From: Diadema antillarum
Taxonomy: Eukaryota
Assembly: GCF_040938485.1 (NCBI RefSeq)
Contig: NW_027270954.1
Span: 806,001-870,000 of the forward strand
Reading direction: 5' to 3'
DNA length: 64,000 bases
How positions within the stretch are numbered: position 1 is the stretch's first letter; each line of letters opens with the position of its first letter. Below are positions 34,701 to 64,000 of this stretch, piece after piece. Made by a program: the position numbers.

Positions 34701-37700
34701 TTGTGTTAAATCACATAATATAAAGAAATCGTTTCTGGTGTGTGAAATAAACTTTCAATTTAATATCGGATTTTACTTTCACAAAATATAGCAAATAACT
34801 ACTGTTGTTGGTAGTAGATGATAACCCATCAATTACATTAGCAAATGTAGCAACGTAATACAGTGCATCCCCGTTATAACGAAGTCCTCGGGACCGGCAG
34901 TTTTCTTTCGTTATTTCGAAATTAATTTCGCTATACTGTGACAATTTTATTAATGCAGTGTATGATGAAAACAAGCAAACTATGCGTATTTTTGTATCTT
35001 TTTTGTTAAATGCCAATCATACGCTGACTGACGACTCAATACAGGAGATTTAATTACAAATCAAATAAAAACCCTGCTTCAAAAAACATAAATTCATTCA
35101 CATCAAAGCACAATGTGCATACACCCATAAAAAGAATATTAATTACTTCAGATCCGATACACATGTGCGATATGCATGACAATATATAGTACAAGGACGG
35201 AAATGTGAATCCACTGCAAGTAGGCCCTACCATTGCTAATATTAGCGTAATCAAATCTATTCCCGATTTCAGTTTCATATCGTATTTAAGACTTGAATCA
35301 CACCACCGAATATGTTTGATTTAGTGTAGGCCTACTTTCTGTACAATTCTCCACAAAACTGCGCCTACATATCCTCCGTTTCCTTGTTGTTGCCTTCTCT
35401 TTTTTTTTTCATCCCGAAGTATAATACGAGTATGCTAGGGTGCGTGCAGTCCGAAATTAAAAGTGTGCCCGAGCGAGCCAGAGCTTGCAAGGCGTACCAC
35501 GAGCAGCAGCTGAGACTGAACGCCCCATGGCCATATAAAGCCAGACCGAGCCGTGCCAGGAAGCGTTATTGTGCCATCATGGACGGCTGCAGTTCATTAT
35601 TTCGAAGGTTTATCATTCCGAAGGTTCGTTAATCCGAAAATGAAATAAGGCTCGCTATTTTGAAGGTTCGTTAATCTACACTCAGCAAAAAAAAGAAAGT
35701 AAACACTTTTTCAAGGTCATATTTTTCATAGAAGATTTTTTATGAAAATCAATGTATAATATTCCATATTAAAGATAATTTAATTGGCTATTACGCTGAT
35801 GGGTTAATTAAAACGAAAACTTTACGCATGAGTGAGCACATTCGTTTTTGTCCTCCAAGGCACAAAATTAAAAATTGCAAAAATTGGCAGGTTCTCTTTC
35901 ATCTGCAAATGCCCTTCACGATAACATTGACAACAAAAGGAATTTTCTGTCAAGTCAAACTTCAAATGACGTAGGGAATAATAAGCGTAAAGATGATTAA
36001 ATGAGCAGAATTTCTTTATTTCTTTTAATCTTGTAATTTAAAATCCATGTGACAATTTCAAGGACCAAACATTATTTACAATTTCCTAATTTGAAAAAAG
36101 CTCAAATTTCTACTTTTTCTATTTGAATTTAGATTTGACATAAGATGCTTTATTTTCCTCCAATATTTTTCGCCTTCATTGATCTTTTGGGTTTTAAAGA
36201 TAAAAATTATCATAGAGATCAAAGGTTTATTTTTGCAACTTAATTCATGTTTCTTTTTGTGTGAAATTTAGTTGTTTGTTCTTATATGGAAGAGCACATA
36301 CGCATGAATGACAACTTGTTCAGTTTTGCAATTTTCACTTTTGTGTCCTGGAAGAGAAAAACAATGGTGTTCACTCATGCGTAAAGTTTCCCTTTTTGTT
36401 GAGCTACCAGGTTGATATCCAATTAGATTATCTTCAGTATGGTATATAATGATTATTAGCTTTCAGCCAAATATTCTATGAGAAATCTAAACTTGAAACA
36501 GTGTTTACTTTCTTTTCTTTCTTTTTTTTTTTTGCTGATTGTATTTGCCCAGAGGTCACTTCTCAACAGTGTTATGCTGAGAAATGTTATGTTGAGAAAT
36601 CATCGAGGCCAAATAGTTTTAATCGTAACCCGAAAAGAAGCTCTGGCACAGTTATTTATTTCGGACTGAACGCGACCTTAGACAGGCCTATAGGGTTCTA
36701 CATTACACAAATTTCGTAACTACAATGTACAACAGAATTATCTTTGGCGTCCAGCAGCGACTTGATTTAGTTACGCTTACTATCATAGACATGATAGAAG
36801 GATATACTGCACTAATATACAAGGAATCATAATGGTTTTATTACAAAGCACAAAAGGGAGATACGATCATAACAAGCAATTATCTACCAAGCTCACCCCT
36901 TTACACACACGCACACTACCCCACACCCATACCCATACCCTCAGCAGCCACACCCTCACGCACATGGTTCTTAAATGTGAATATAATAGGGAATGAATAT
37001 AGGAAATATGACAAAATGTATTAGTGTTACCGACTCATCAAAAAGGTCAAATAAAAACAACGAGAAAAAAATAGATATTTTCAAACACATCAAAAAAGTC
37101 TTCACAGTCACGTCCTTCATCCCTCATTAACATGACTAGTATCCAACTTGATCAACAGAAGCAAAGAACGATCAGAAGTGGGGTTTACTGTGAAGCAGAC
37201 TCATCGGCAACATTTACAAGGTTCGAAACACCACCTGGTCTTTCGTTATACTCCACAAGTGTAACATTCTTCGTCTCCTTCTCAGCTTTTCCTGTCTTCG
37301 AAGTAGAAGACAGGTCATCGCTCCCTCTCCTGGAGAAACTGGGAGATTATGTTGAGTGAGAAATTTGAATCAGTATACCTTTCTTTCGCATTAGTAAAAC
37401 ACGAATAAGCACACGGGTGTCAAGATTAAGTGAGGTTTCAAACTACTCATTGGTGTCAAAAAGCTATGAAGAATTTTATGATTTGTAGGCCTACTGTAAT
37501 GTAAATACGTTTGCTAATCTTGTACTTCTGGCATAACGAAGGTCTTTTTTAAAACACGTGATGCATGCAATACATGCTGATTATATCTTCTTCTTCTTCT
37601 TCTTCTTTTGTTGCGATGACTCCAAAGAAATGACACTATAAGAGAGATATATCACGGGATTCCTCTCATGTATGGGGCAATCCCGACGAAACATGAAATG

Positions 37701-61688: not shown

Positions 61689-64000
61689 CATCATTATCAT
61701 TACTATTAATTTCAGTTTAATCTGATAATCCCTTAATTGTTGTTACTCCGGTGGTTTCCATCCTGTTTTTTGTCCCATTCATCGCACAACCAGCACGGCT
61801 TGATAAAGATAAAGCGCTTGAATAGACACTGTACTTCAGAGGCTCTTTTCTCAGTTTACACTTTTCCTGAGTGTGTGCATTCTTTCCACTATTTAGATAG
61901 GTTAGGAGAGTCCATTTGATTTGAGTAATACATCATTTTAAAGCTTAAAGTCTGCTCTTTCAGAATATGCTCTCAACTAAAATTTTATGTGTTTCGACGT
62001 TTTGTGTGTTTTGTGGTGCAGGGTCACATAACATCACTATACCACAAATAAAATACATTATAGATCGAAAAGTTAAACATTAGAGTAAGAAAATATTACT
62101 TGCAGTCATGGAATAGACAAACTGTGATTACGCTGTCGTTGCTCAGCGATATTCATGACTTACACTGGGTTGTGTTAAGGAGATATTTATGATAAAGCAA
62201 TGCTTATTAAATTTACAGAAAAAAAAGACATCAAAACTTTCAAACACCCCTCCCACACCCAAGTACAATATTAATTCATCTCTTGAAGTAATGTATTTTC
62301 TGTTTGAATTTCTTGTATGCATGTCATTTTGTAATACGCAGTAGAGTATATTGTTAATGTAGCTGCGCAATANNNNNNNNNNNNNNNNNNNNNNNNNNNN
62401 NNNNNNNNNNNNNNNNNNNNNNNNNNNNNNNNNNNNNNNNNNNNNNNNNNNNNNNNNNNNNNNNNNNNNNNNNNNNNNNNNNNNNNNNNNNNNNNNNNNN
62501 NATACACATTCGATGGAGCGTAAAGTGCATGGGTAAGACTATAGAGAAATACTAAATTCGTTCTCATTTTATATAGTTGCCCCTGTCCCACACCTTCCCC
62601 GGCCAGAAAAGTGAATAAAATGCTATCCCCATCCCCTACCCAAAATATTGCTTTTTTCAAAAATATACATTCGAAGAGTACAAGAAAAAAAAAGTTCAGC
62701 ACCAAGAGTCAACCGATGTCATGAGTATACATGATATTAATGGGTGCCACTTAAAATGACCATTAATTGAGGGAGAAATTTCATAATTTGACCATGCAGT
62801 TCTGCCTTTCCACCGCTCCGACTGTGTTGTAGCATTCCTTCAGGTAAAGGCGCTGCAGCTTGGCAACAGGAGTAGTGTGCCTTCCCACGAGTCTCTGTGT
62901 TCCCATGCGAGTGGAAAACGGAAAACGTCGGAGGACGTAATTGTCCGCAACATCCGTAGCTGTCCGTAAATATCCGTAAGCGGGCAAAACTGTTGTGATA
63001 CGTTAACTTGCGGTTAATTTCGGATACTTACGGTGGACGTAAGCGAACGCAAACGGACGGAAGGTACATTTTTTTTTTTTGCGGATGGTCTGCGTCCAAG
63101 CCACGAGTAGTTACGTTCAGTTACGGATAGTTACGTTTGGTTACGGTTACTTGCGTAATTTTGCGTCCGTGGCGTCCCTCTGCGAAATTTTGAACATTTC
63201 AAAATTTCGCAGGTTCGGCGACGTCATTTTGCGTTTCTTTACGGATGAGTTACGGACAGTTACGTCTACATACGTCCCTGCGGATGCCTGCGTCCACGCT
63301 GCGTCCCCCTGCGTCCAGTTATTCGTATCTATCCGCGGCGGACGTAATCCATCGTAAAGCACTGTGTGACTGAGTTTTTCCCCAAAAGCCTTTCTTACCC
63401 TGATACCCAGGCGGACAGCGGCATTCGAAGCTATTCTGATCCCCCGTGCATGTTCCACCGTTACTACACTGCGCCTCGGTACTGCAGAGATTGAGCTCTT
63501 CTGTACACCACTCCCCCGTCCAGCCCACTGAGCAAGTGCACCTGAAGCCAGGAGGCTTGCTGATACACACACCATTTGGTCCACAAGGGTTGTCAGTGCA
63601 GTCGTCAAGCTCATTCTCACAATTTAGTCCTTGGACGAAATGATTGAGACAAACTTGTGACAATTATCATATTTACAATCTGCTACATTTACCTGCTTTT
63701 TATCAGAAAGGTGATTCGTCTTGTAACACTATTCTGAAAGTAGGCCATGTTGTAAACTGAGGCTTGGGTTCGTATTGAGGGTTTGCCGTAAAATTTTGAA
63801 GATCTCAGGACTACGTAAACCGATTTTACTGAAATGTTTTCCGATTTACTCCAAAGACCTAAACAAAATTTTGTCTTTTACTAGATTTGCAAAAAAAAAA
63901 CAACCCAAAAACAAACTAGATATCATAAAGTGATTACAGTTGCAAATACGCGAAATGAAATGGAAAATGGCTCTTTGTTTGCTATATGTATACAAATGGA

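What the first reader, a model, noticed from the sequence alone, without database searches (positions are those of the whole stretch)
37185..63629. Membrane receptor with SVEP1/Uninflatable modules in rearranged order
Seen: a continuous 23-exon frame giving >=13 EGF, LamG/pentraxin, 2 EGF, TSP1, sushi-like, about 150-aa spacer with RRKR, 3 full plus 1 partial GCC2/3 Cys-rich repeats, TM and an about 89-aa tail. Known: in SVEP1 and Drosophila Uif the sushi/spacer/GCC block lies N-terminal to the EGF-pentraxin/LamG block; SVEP1 is secreted, and I do not recall a TSP1 at this position in either. Inference: this is an exon-shuffled (mostly phase-1 introns) receptor with the GCC block moved next to the membrane, and it may be an uncharacterised invertebrate-deuterostome adhesion or Notch-modulating receptor family.
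[Added by the scan's program, not by the reader: the finding's places include an assembly gap (unread letters, written N; its length is only estimated) at 58031 to 58158, 62373 to 62501. Whether the letters on both sides are continuous or in frame is not known: test that first.]
Basis: partly seen in the sequence, partly recalled or inferred. Interest (0 to 1): 0.65.

Follow-up and report, generated by a model that had tools for sequence, protein, structure and literature searches.

The report
Sea urchin SVEP1/Uif-family membrane protein
This is the last third of a real, very large sea-urchin cell-surface protein of the known SVEP1/Polydom-Uninflatable family, and its seemingly rearranged module order is the family's normal layout seen without the gene's missing front part.

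Summary
On the minus strand, 23 exons (63629-37185) with canonical AG/GT sites and a consistent phase chain encode 13 EGF, a LamG-like domain, 2 EGF, TSP1, a sushi-like module, a ~150-aa spacer with RRKR, a half plus 3 GCC (Ephrin_rec_like) repeats, a TM segment and a ~87-aa tail. Both N gaps lie in introns. No residues are missing across them relative to the orthologue.

Exons 1-20 are 69-98% identical, in order, to residues 2388-3616 of a 3744-aa Diadema antillarum protein (XP_071484069.1). That protein also has the N-terminal HYR-sushi-spacer-GCCx3 block upstream. So the membrane-proximal GCC block is a second copy, not a moved one.

Genuine Drosophila-type Uif has the same second block before its TM. 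So do hemichordate, crinoid, mollusc, nemertean and horseshoe-crab relatives. What differs is the linker after LamG: EGFx2-TSP1 in sea urchins, sea stars and oysters, HYR in Uif.

The spacer is duplicated, has a conserved furin-type site, and is predicted to be ferredoxin-like. Its homologue in vertebrate SVEP1 is reported to be cleaved.

Verdict: an ordinary new member of a known family.

The parts
63399..63629 (-). exon 1 in the window (phase 1 to 1): 2 EGF. The gene's 5' exons lie beyond the window end.
   Evidence: AG/GT sites; Pfam EGF 2.5e-12; 92% identical to P0188 2388-2462
60526..60679 (-). exon 2 (phase 1 to 2): EGF
   Evidence: 98% to P0188 2464-2513
59800..59955 (-). exon 3 (phase 2 to 2): EGF
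   Evidence: 88% to P0188 2515-2564
58618..58900 (-). exon 4 (phase 2 to 0): EGFs, two with D/N-x-D/N-E-C calcium-type starts
   Evidence: 94% to P0188 2567-2659
57498..57788 (-). exon 5 (phase 0 to 0): EGFs
   Evidence: Pfam EGF 3.2e-19; 95% to P0188 2661-2757
56783..56927 (-). exon 6 (phase 0 to 1): EGF
   Evidence: 85% to P0188 2758-2805
53142..53262 (-). exon 7 (phase 1 to 2): EGF
   Evidence: 92% to P0188 2807-2845
52077..52210 (-). exon 8 (phase 2 to 1): last EGF before LamG
   Evidence: 86% to P0188 2847-2890
51411..51624 (-). exon 9 (phase 1 to 2): first part of the LamG-like domain
   Evidence: Laminin_G_3 E 0.046 at profile 11-51; family LamG profile 3-45, 28 bits; 69% to P0188 2892-2961
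50817..51016 (-). exon 10 (phase 2 to 1): middle of the LamG-like domain
   Evidence: Laminin_G_2 E 0.18 at profile 48-85; family LamG profile 53-103, 40 bits; 86% to P0188 2963-3028
48889..49062 (-). exon 11 (phase 1 to 1): end of the LamG-like domain
   Evidence: no Pfam hit; 89% to P0188 3030-3086; matches P0151 1978-2033 at 35.9 bits
47793..48026 (-). exon 12 (phase 1 to 1): 2 EGF after LamG
   Evidence: Pfam EGF 7e-14; 90% to P0188 3088-3164
47302..47472 (-). exon 13 (phase 1 to 1): TSP1 repeat with W-x-x-W and C-S-x-S-C-G motifs
   Evidence: Pfam TSP_1 2.4e-11; 89% to P0188 3166-3221
46766..46972 (-). exon 14 (phase 1 to 1): six-Cys sushi-like module
   Evidence: no Pfam hit; local Sushi profile iE 6.4e-4; 85% to P0188 3223-3290
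45369..45544 (-). exon 15 (phase 1 to 0): spacer domain, first strand and helix
   Evidence: 86% to P0188 3292-3349; structure model
44754..44856 (-). exon 16 (phase 0 to 1): spacer domain; the RRKR furin-type motif is at 44827-44838
   Evidence: 94% to P0188 3350-3383; motif aligned in one column in 20 of 20 relatives
43212..43382 (-). exon 17 (phase 1 to 1): end of the spacer domain plus half a GCC repeat
   Evidence: 84% to P0188 3386-3440
42345..42515 (-). exon 18 (phase 1 to 1): GCC / Ephrin_rec_like repeat 1
   Evidence: Pfam 1.1e-12; 95% to P0188 3442-3497
41689..41868 (-). exon 19 (phase 1 to 1): GCC repeat 2
   Evidence: Pfam 2.4e-13; 97% to P0188 3499-3557
40440..40616 (-). exon 20 (phase 1 to 1): GCC repeat 3
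   Evidence: Pfam 2.3e-9; 97% to P0188 3559-3616
38434..38572 (-). exon 21 (phase 1 to 2): Ser/Pro-rich stalk, 24-residue TM segment at 38454-38525, then NRRKK stop-transfer
   Evidence: only 44% identical to P0188 3621-3656
37929..38024 (-). exon 22 (phase 2 to 2): cytoplasmic; a possible cassette exon, since skipping it keeps the frame
   Evidence: splice sites; 53% to P0188 3658-3687
37185..37329 (-). exon 23: cytoplasmic tail and TAA stop at 37185-37187
   Evidence: 41% to P0188 3692-3744
62373..62501 (.). assembly gap inside intron 1
58031..58158 (.). assembly gap inside intron 4

Best explanation
The window holds the last ~1350 codons of a sea-urchin gene for a ~3750-residue type I membrane glycoprotein of the SVEP1/Polydom-Uninflatable family.

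Shown: the exon chain, the module order, and its collinearity with full-length relatives. Those relatives read [HYR-sushi]n - HYRx2 - sushi-like - spacer - GCCx3 - EGFx21 - LamG - EGFx2 - TSP1 - sushi-like - spacer - GCCx3 - TM - short tail.

Also shown: the sushi-spacer-GCC unit occurs twice, and the two spacers are homologous. Each spacer is a ~160-residue domain predicted to have a beta-alpha-beta / beta-alpha-beta (ferredoxin-like) fold. An R-x-K/R-R site sits in the loop between the second and third strands.

Inferred mechanism:
1. The protein is made as an adhesive, Notch-like-glycosylated ectodomain on the cell surface.
2. A furin-type convertase cuts the spacer(s) in the secretory pathway, as is reported for the homologous spacer of vertebrate SVEP1.
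3. That leaves a large EGF/LamG/TSP1 fragment and a membrane stub carrying the GCC repeats.
4. Whether the two stay together or the large fragment is released into the matrix is open.
5. By analogy with fly Uif, the EGF array may bind Notch in cis or organise apical matrix. The poorly conserved tail argues against a conserved signalling role of its own.
For: Exon chain with canonical sites and consistent phases.

Per-exon Pfam: EGF, TSP_1, Ephrin_rec_like.

Exons 1-20 are 84-98% identical (exon 9: 69%) to consecutive segments of XP_071484069.1, with one split-codon residue between them.

Ordered maps of 26 relatives, seeded from Pfam coordinates.

P0246's 90% cluster holds proteins named 'uif' and 'Uninflatable'. 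P0246 has GCCx4 at 3147-3360 after LamG.

Spacer 1 versus spacer 2: hhalign probability 98.5%, E 3.5e-15, 166 columns.

Basic motif: Arg at P1 in one alignment column in 20 of 20 second spacers, and strict R-x-[KR]-R in 15 of 21.

ML tree of 43 blocks: block 2 against block 1 supported 95/92.

Fold model: pLDDT 76.9, pTM 0.68, with RRKR in the loop between strands 54-62 and 77-86.

Papers (passages read): Polydom is cleaved into 115-kD and 270-kD fragments when secreted (PMC10281526). A furin cleavage site lies shortly before SVEP1 R997 (PMC13722417). Uif has a 'presumed cleavage site' (PMC12867482). Uif antagonises Notch in cis (PMC3340373).

5 O-glucose and 8 O-fucose consensus sites in the window's EGF exons.
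Against: The N-terminal two thirds are not in the window. Their presence in this genome is inferred from a ~90% identical protein of another genome or gene copy.

The AU test does not reject a tree that puts the sea-urchin block 2 with the block 1 rows (p 0.157). An independent, later duplication is therefore not excluded.

The LamG call fails Pfam thresholds on single exons and on the orthologue (20.8 bits against 27.6).

Cleavage is untested in any echinoderm. 6 of 21 relatives lack the strict R-x-[KR]-R motif.

TM and tail are only 41-53% identical to the orthologue and match no other relative.

The fold model rests on 12 sequences and has dips to pLDDT 62-69 around the cleavage loop.

No expression data were available.
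Confidence: 0.85

Rival explanations
1. One reading: a new exon-shuffled receptor family of invertebrate deuterostomes, in which the sushi/spacer/GCC block moved from the N-terminal side of the EGF-LamG block to the membrane.
For: Within the window alone the order is EGF-LamG-...-GCC-TM. 14 of 23 introns are phase 1, which suits shuffling. The AU test does not reject block 2 of sea urchins sitting with block 1 (p 0.157).
Against: The orthologue and 5 further echinoderm proteins carry both blocks: P0188, P0186, P0151, P0190, P0197, P0209. Uif-type proteins of 8 species also carry a second block before the TM. Oysters share the exact C-terminal order. The ML tree groups all 21 second blocks together (95/92; one row was mislabelled by my script).
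Confidence: 0.04
2. It is the sea-urchin orthologue of Uninflatable itself, not a member of the SVEP1-type branch. It would work as Uif does: apical membrane and matrix organisation, and cis-inhibition of Notch.
For: It is a type I membrane protein with a second sushi-spacer-GCC block next to the TM, as in Uif. Uif proteins align to 33-50% of the C-terminal query region of the S. purpuratus relative at 25-30% identity.
Against: The Uif-type rows form their own clade in both halves of the tree (99/98 and 100/97). That clade includes a crinoid and two hemichordates but no sea-urchin row. On block 1 the echinoid rows group with SVEP1 proper (85/79). The orthologue has no CUB, F5/8C or LDLa hit. 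HYR after LamG is replaced by EGFx2-TSP1. The tail conserved across arthropod Uif is absent.
Confidence: 0.15
3. Two neighbouring genes, a secreted EGF-LamG protein and a TSP1-GCC-TM protein, read together by mistake.
For: No transcript data were available. Related gene models can be wrong: the D. setosum model P0185 holds two successive C-terminal blocks with a TM between them. Shorter relatives exist: P0075 at 1676 aa and P0187 at 1685 aa.
Against: The phase is kept across the LamG / EGF / TSP1 junctions (1 to 1) with good splice sites and introns of only 320-862 bp there. No stop, signal peptide or start is evident between them. Independent models in 11 proteins from sea urchins, sea stars and oysters join the same modules in the same order.
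Confidence: 0.04

Closest known systems
XP_071484069.1, 'uncharacterized protein' of Diadema antillarum (P0188, 3744 aa), and the near-identical XP_071484068.1
   Same: Exons 1-20 match residues 2388-3616 in order at 69-98% identity with the same exon junctions. It has the same TSP1, sushi-like module, RRKR spacer, three GCC repeats, TM and three-part tail.
   Different: TM and tail are only 41-53% identical, and the window's stalk is a few residues longer. The window is therefore from another species or another gene copy, not this record.
Uninflatable (Uif) of Drosophila and other arthropods (P0246 cluster, 3588-3589 aa)
   Same: Type I membrane protein with HYRx2-sushi-spacer-GCCx3-EGF array-LamG, then a second sushi-spacer-GCC block next to the TM. 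The furin-type motif (RVRR) is at the aligned place.
   Different: Uif has LDLa, CUBx3 and two F5/8C domains at the front, HYR instead of EGFx2-TSP1 after LamG, GCCx4 plus an EGF before the TM, and a 118-aa tail conserved across arthropods. Published domain lists read here (PMC3340373, Discussion passage) name 18 EGF, CLECT, CUB, CCP, FA58C and HYR, but not the GCC repeats.
Vertebrate-type SVEP1/Polydom (P0290, XP_061921980.1; organism name cut off in the outputs)
   Same: HYRx2-sushi-like-spacer-GCCx3-EGF-LamG/pentraxin core. The spacer has R-x-K-R motifs. On block 1 the echinoderm and oyster proteins group with it (85/79). Cleavage into 115-kD and 270-kD fragments is reported (PMC10281526, passage).
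   Different: SVEP1 is secreted, has VWA at the front and about 30 CCPs plus 3 EGF after the pentraxin, and has no second spacer-GCC block, no TSP1 and no TM.
Oyster 'SVEP1-like' membrane proteins (Crassostrea virginica; P0160, P0161, P0162; ~1500 aa)
   Same: Identical C-terminal order LamG-EGFx2-TSP1-sushi-like-spacer(R-x-K/R-R)-GCC, followed by a TM and short tail in P0161 and P0162, with the N-terminal HYR-sushi-spacer-GCC block as well.
   Different: There is no long EGF array between GCC block 1 and LamG. They are about 30% identical over 54% of the compared region.
SCUBE1-3
   Same: EGF repeats, a spacer, then three GCC repeats. A 190-aa D. antillarum fragment of this family's GCC block is even auto-named SCUBE2.
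   Different: SCUBE ends in a CUB domain and is secreted. A fish SCUBE2 (P0176) matched only the GCC exons at 16-22 bits and none of the other exons.

Membership tests
SVEP1/Polydom-Uif family (shared core) | EGF array followed by a LamG/pentraxin-like domain | tested here: met
   EGF in exons 1-8. The LamG signal is weak per exon but collinear on the family profile. Laminin_G_3 is above cut-off at the same place in P0151 and Uif.
SVEP1/Polydom-Uif family (shared core) | HYRx2 - sushi - spacer - GCCx3 block on the N-terminal side of the EGF array | not testable with these tools
   It lies beyond the window's end. It is present in the orthologue P0188 at 1505-2082 and in 24 of the 26 mapped relatives; P0075 and P0187 lack it.
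SVEP1/Polydom-Uif family (shared core) | ~160-aa spacer domain before the GCC repeats, with a basic cleavage motif | tested here: met
   Exons 15-17 carry RRKR in exon 16. The motif column is shared by 20 of 20 aligned relatives. The spacers are homologous.
Uninflatable (Uif) proper | second sushi-spacer-GCC block, then a single TM and a short tail | tested here: met
   Exons 14-23; Uif map.
Uninflatable (Uif) proper | HYR domain directly after LamG | tested here: not met
   EGFx2 and TSP1 occupy that place. The local HYR profile hits no exon below iE 0.17.
Uninflatable (Uif) proper | LDLa, CUBx3 and F5/8C domains in the N-terminal part | tested here: not met
   Tested on the orthologue only: none of these is among the 11 Pfam families of P0188, whereas all are found in P0246. 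The window itself cannot show it.
Uninflatable (Uif) proper | cytoplasmic tail conserved from horseshoe crab to flies | tested here: not met
   Tails compared. Exons 21-23 matched only the orthologue, and weakly.
Vertebrate-type SVEP1/Polydom | secreted, with a long CCP array and terminal EGFs after the pentraxin domain, and no TM | tested here: not met
   A TM lies in exon 21, and only one sushi-like module follows LamG.
Vertebrate-type SVEP1/Polydom | closest kinship of the shared core | tested here: inconclusive
   Block 1 of the echinoderm and oyster proteins groups with SVEP1 proper at 85/79, which is not a starred branch.
SCUBE | C-terminal CUB domain after the three GCC repeats; secreted | tested here: not met
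   The TM exon follows GCC repeat 3 directly. There is no CUB hit in any exon ORF.

The most novel reading that the evidence does not exclude
The 'spacer' is an unnamed, ancient extracellular domain: ferredoxin-like, about 160 aa, and always followed by GCC repeats.

Its conserved convertase site lies in the loop between two strands of one sheet. The cut halves could therefore stay together until pulled apart, as in SEA domains or the Notch heterodimerisation domain. That would make this family cleaved, possibly force-sensitive, two-chain surface proteins.

The same spacer-plus-GCC unit may be the structural counterpart, perhaps the source, of the hinge plus type-2 repeats of thyroglobulin.

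Separately, the membrane-anchored, TSP1-bearing SVEP1-type proteins of echinoderms and oysters may be an old bilaterian sister of Uif. Vertebrates would have remodelled it into secreted SVEP1. In that case fly Uif and vertebrate SVEP1 would be old paralogues, not orthologues.
Probability: 0.3. Interest if true: 0.55.

Novelty: new member of a known kind. Interest (0 to 1): 0.28.

Why it matters
For the scan, a striking 'rearranged' architecture turns out to come from seeing a gene's 3' third and from a misremembered reference architecture. It need not be pursued as a new receptor family.

For the field, the by-products are modest but usable:
- A full module map of the SVEP1/Polydom-Uif family across 26 proteins shows that the sushi-spacer-GCC unit is present twice in every membrane-anchored member.
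- The furin-type site is conserved from flies to sea urchins at one position in a foldable domain.
- Echinoderms and oysters share an EGFx2-TSP1 linker where Uif has HYR.

These points give concrete constructs for testing cleavage and Notch or matrix interactions in sea-urchin embryos, where such a protein has not been studied.

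Tried and rejected
1. A word-index search with LamG exon 10 alone ('longer', 117-2000 aa) found nothing. True relatives are mostly longer than 2000 aa.

2. The exhaustive HMMER job with GCC exon 19 returned 2592 hits. 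Its top 150 were dominated by proteins with 10-58 GCC repeats, because scores add up over repeats. Only P0075 among the 150 was collinear with the other exons.

3. PDB sequence search with exon 10: 3 hits, best E 0.29, laminin alpha-1 LG at E 1.1. Not significant.

4. ESM Atlas on the spacer of P0075: best score 0.80, which is noise level by the tool's own figures, and no structure was held.

5. SEA-domain idea for the spacer: MUC16 SEA is only E 0.024 and EpCAM E 0.027, among many generic ferredoxin-like folds. A profile search of PDB sequences gave nothing relevant. Shared topology only; not claimed as SEA.

6. The AU test of 'sea-urchin block 2 belongs with block 1' did not reject it (p 0.157). 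The tree alone therefore does not settle the age of the duplication.

7. Pfam found no family for the LINE-like ORFs in intron 16.

8. My first local scan of all 299 proteins timed out and was rerun on the named hits only.

9. In one search my script mislabelled the Lineus row as block 1, because no LamG was found in that protein. It is that protein's membrane-proximal block.

10. Recounting one search gives 15 of 21.

Not done:
- Joining the exons and running the joined model through Pfam, homology search or folding, by instruction.
- Reading the gaps.
- Genome contigs, which holds prokaryotes only.
- Figure supplements and supplementary files of the papers, which are closed. The position of Uif's 'presumed cleavage site' was therefore not seen.

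Full report
**What is in the window.** The region has about 38% G+C. On its minus strand is a chain of open segments with EGF-like, TSP1-like and Cys-rich translations. I placed splice sites by consensus and by phase.

- 23 exons run from 63629 down to the TAA at 37185-37187.
- All have AG acceptors and GT donors, and the phases follow on without a break.
- 14 of 23 introns are phase 1.
- I computed coordinates and phases only. That step was left out by instruction.

**Domains, exon by exon.**

- Pfam finds EGF in 8 of the first 10 ORFs.
- It finds EGF in one further ORF, TSP_1 in one (2.4e-11) and Ephrin_rec_like, the GCC2/GCC3 repeat, in three (1e-12, 2e-13, 2e-9). Five ORFs had no hit.
- A PDB sequence search with the middle exon was not significant.
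- The sushi-like exon and the three spacer exons have no Pfam family.
- Exon 21 holds a 24-residue hydrophobic segment followed by NRRKK.
- A 96-nt exon (38024-37929, phase 2 to 2) and the last exon give a tail of about 87 residues.

**The gaps.** N runs lie at 62373-62501 and 58031-58158. They fall inside intron 1 (phase 1/1) and intron 4 (phase 0/0). Against the orthologue, exon 1 ends at residue 2462 and exon 2 starts at 2464. Exon 4 ends at 2659, with one unaligned last residue, and exon 5 starts at 2661. Relative to that model no coding sequence is missing. I did not read or fill the gaps.

**Finding relatives.**

- A word-index search with one LamG exon found nothing among proteins of 117-2000 aa.
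- The one exhaustive HMMER job, run with GCC exon 19, gave 2592 hits. Its top 150 were mostly proteins with dozens of GCC repeats.
- Scanning those 150 locally with each non-repeat exon picked out a single protein, P0075. It matched 8 of 11 such exons in the window's order.
- P0075 is XP_071505772.1, an 'uncharacterized protein' of the sea urchin Diadema antillarum.
- Searching with its non-EGF part found P0151, XP_011674476.1 of S. purpuratus, at 41% identity over 100% of the region. It also found oyster 'SVEP1-like' proteins.
- Searching with the C-terminal part of P0151 gave 148 hits among 4259 candidates. These included full-length echinoderm proteins of 3250-3760 aa and arthropod proteins named uif.

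**The orthologue.** P0188 is XP_071484069.1 of D. antillarum, 3744 aa.

- It matches exons 1-20 at 84-98% identity (exon 9: 69%) over residues 2388-3616.
- Each exon is followed by exactly the one residue expected from a split codon. This confirms the exon boundaries independently.
- TM and tail are only 41-53% identical.
- The window therefore holds about the last 1350 of about 3750 codons.
- I take the contig for that of a sea urchin related to Diadema, or a diverged gene copy. It is not human.

**Module order in the family.** I built small profiles seeded from Pfam coordinates and mapped 26 proteins.

- P0188 reads [HYR-sushi]n, HYRx2, sushi-like, spacer, GCCx3 (1927-2082), EGFx21, LamG, EGFx2, TSP1 (Pfam 3171-3220), sushi-like, spacer, GCCx3 (3450-3615), TM.
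- P0246 reads LDLa, CUBx3, sushi, F5/8C, HYRx2, sushi, spacer, GCCx3, EGFx14, LamG, HYR, sushi, spacer, GCCx4 (3147-3360), EGF, TM. Its 90% cluster contains D. busckii 'uif' and D. gunungcola 'Uninflatable'.
- Two hemichordates, a crinoid, a gastropod, a nemertean and a horseshoe crab have the Uif-type order.
- Sea urchins, sea stars and oysters have EGFx2-TSP1 in place of that HYR. The brittle-star protein has no room for a TSP1.
- SVEP1 proper (P0290, P0297) shares the first block, the EGFs and LamG. It then continues with about 30 sushi repeats and has no TM.

So the membrane-proximal GCC block is the second of two blocks. It is not a moved one, and Uif itself has it. The published Uif domain lists that I read do not mention the GCC repeats at all (PMC3340373, Discussion passage).

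**The spacer.**

- The spacers of block 1 and block 2 are homologous: hhalign 98.5%, E 3.5e-15, 166 columns.
- In an alignment of 20 second spacers, the basic motif sits in one column a few residues after a conserved Cys. P1 is Arg in 20 of 20, P2 is K/R in 18 of 20, and P4 is Arg in 17 of 20.
- The strict R-x-[KR]-R pattern is present in 15 of 21 second spacers. The window has RRKR in exon 16.
- A model of the orthologue's spacer from a 12-sequence alignment has mean pLDDT 76.9 and pTM 0.68.
- Its order of elements is strand, helix, strand, loop with RRKR, strand, helix, strands.
- Against the PDB, the only match below E 0.001 is bovine thyroglobulin (E 2.8e-5, TM 0.53 on the query). Human thyroglobulin follows at 2.2e-3. 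SEA (0.024) and EpCAM (0.027) sit among generic ferredoxin-like folds.
- There is no sequence-level link.
- In thyroglobulin a 'hinge' is followed by three type-2 repeats (PMC8748809, passage), which parallels spacer then GCC. The tool does not give the aligned residues, so this is a lead only.

**Literature on cleavage and function.**

[quoted passage not shown] - A 'presumed cleavage site' of Uif was targeted by CRISPR (PMC12867482, Results and Methods passages). Its position is in a figure supplement that I could not see.
- Uif antagonises Notch in cis when over-expressed (PMC3340373, abstract and passages).
- The S. purpuratus relative XP_011674476.1 is listed as the nearest sea-urchin protein of a protein found in the sea-star skeletal proteome (PMC5460417, Table 2 passage).
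- A Sushi-HYR-TKE core and added TSRs are described for cnidarian Polydom-like proteins (PMC12549020, passages).
- Searches for the accession and locus names of the sea-urchin proteins found only PMC5460417. A search for SVEP1 with sea urchin, echinoderm and thrombospondin listed nothing on this protein among its 12 best of 93 papers. I found no description of this subtype in the held library.

**Age of the second block.**

- An ML tree of 43 spacer-plus-GCC blocks splits block 2 from block 1 at 95/92. One row, labelled Lineus_b1, was my script's mislabel of that protein's second block.
- Uif-type rows form starred clades in both halves (99/98 and 100/97).
- On block 1 the echinoderm, oyster and P0196 rows group with SVEP1 proper, at 85/79 only.
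- The AU test does not reject placing the five sea-urchin second blocks with the block 1 rows (p 0.157). An ancient duplication is therefore the better-supported reading but is not proven.

**Mechanism, with what is shown and what is inferred.**

Shown:
- The protein is a large type I membrane protein.
- Its EGFs carry 5 O-glucose and 8 O-fucose consensus sites.
- Its TSP1 has the W-x-x-W and C-S-x-S-C-G motifs. The meaning of these motifs is recalled, not tested.
- Its juxtamembrane part is sushi-like, a cleavable spacer domain, and three GCC repeats.

Inferred:
- A convertase cuts at RRKR.
- The large fragment is either held or shed.
- The protein acts in adhesion and matrix organisation, or in modulating Notch, by analogy with Uif and SVEP1.
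- The tail is not conserved outside arthropods, so I do not expect a conserved signalling role for it.

**Verdict.** The 'rearrangement' is not real. The gene is a new member of a known family, and its orthologue is already in GenBank as an uncharacterised prediction.

Noticed in passing
window 8762-17114, + strand: Exons of an AAA ATPase gene. Pfam gives AAA 4.1e-10 for 12628-12927 and AAA_lid_3 3.5e-5 for 16779-17111. By eye the peptides look like a 26S proteasome regulatory (Rpt) subunit; that name is recalled, not tested.
   Followed up: partly
window 25410-25865 and 26374-26922, - strand: An enkurin gene lies between the proteasome-like gene and the finding. Pfam gives Enkurin 1.8e-32 for the first ORF and no family for the second.
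   Followed up: partly
window 43487-44399, + strand (inside intron 16): Two overlapping long ORFs that look like the tail of a LINE ORF2, on the opposite strand inside the gene's largest spacer intron. Pfam found no family, so the label is from recall only.
   Followed up: partly
window 48364-48642, 45714-45855, 40175-40364, 61637-61708: Intronic repeats: a 15-bp minisatellite of 18.6 copies, a 51-bp repeat of 2.8 copies, and CTA and TTA microsatellites.
   Followed up: no
window 37185-38572 (exons 21-23): TM and cytoplasmic tail are only 41-53% identical to the D. antillarum orthologue, while the ectodomain exons are 84-98% identical. This is either very relaxed constraint on the tail or a sign that the window's gene is a diverged copy. 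Unexplained.
   Followed up: partly
relatives P0188 / P0301 (D. antillarum) and P0185 (D. setosum): P0188 and P0301 lie on one contig. They differ by scattered substitutions over most of their length but are identical between residues 2660 and 3459. They look like near-identical gene copies or haplotigs rather than isoforms. The D. setosum model P0185 contains a complete C-terminal block with a TM, followed by a second EGFx2-TSP1-sushi-like-GCCx4 block. It is probably two tandem genes fused by the gene predictor.
   Followed up: partly
model of P0188 residues 3290-3449 (counterpart of window exons 15-17): The spacer-plus-first-GCC model has thyroglobulin as its only PDB match below E 0.001 (bovine 7n4y_A, E 2.8e-5). 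Thyroglobulin has a hinge followed by type-2 (GCC-like) repeats (PMC8748809, passage). A preprint on thyroglobulin evolution (10.1101/2025.06.18.660348, passages) reports no detectable homology for the type-2 modules outside thyroglobulin by BLAST. SVEP1 does not occur in its main text.
   Followed up: partly
relative P0209 (Amphiura filiformis) 3074-3220: The brittle-star family member goes from EGFx2 straight to the sushi-like module with 7 residues between them, so it lacks the TSP1 found in sea urchins, sea stars and oysters.
   Followed up: no
relative P0300 (XP_071496312.1, 190 aa): A 190-aa D. antillarum protein in the orthologue's 90% cluster is named 'signal peptide, CUB and EGF-like domain-containing protein 2'. 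It is in fact a piece of this family's second GCC block: a 20-residue stretch of it is found letter for letter in P0188 from about residue 3524. This is an example of misleading automatic naming.
   Followed up: yes
window 271-534 and 22598-22760: Two further assembly gaps outside the finding.
   Followed up: no
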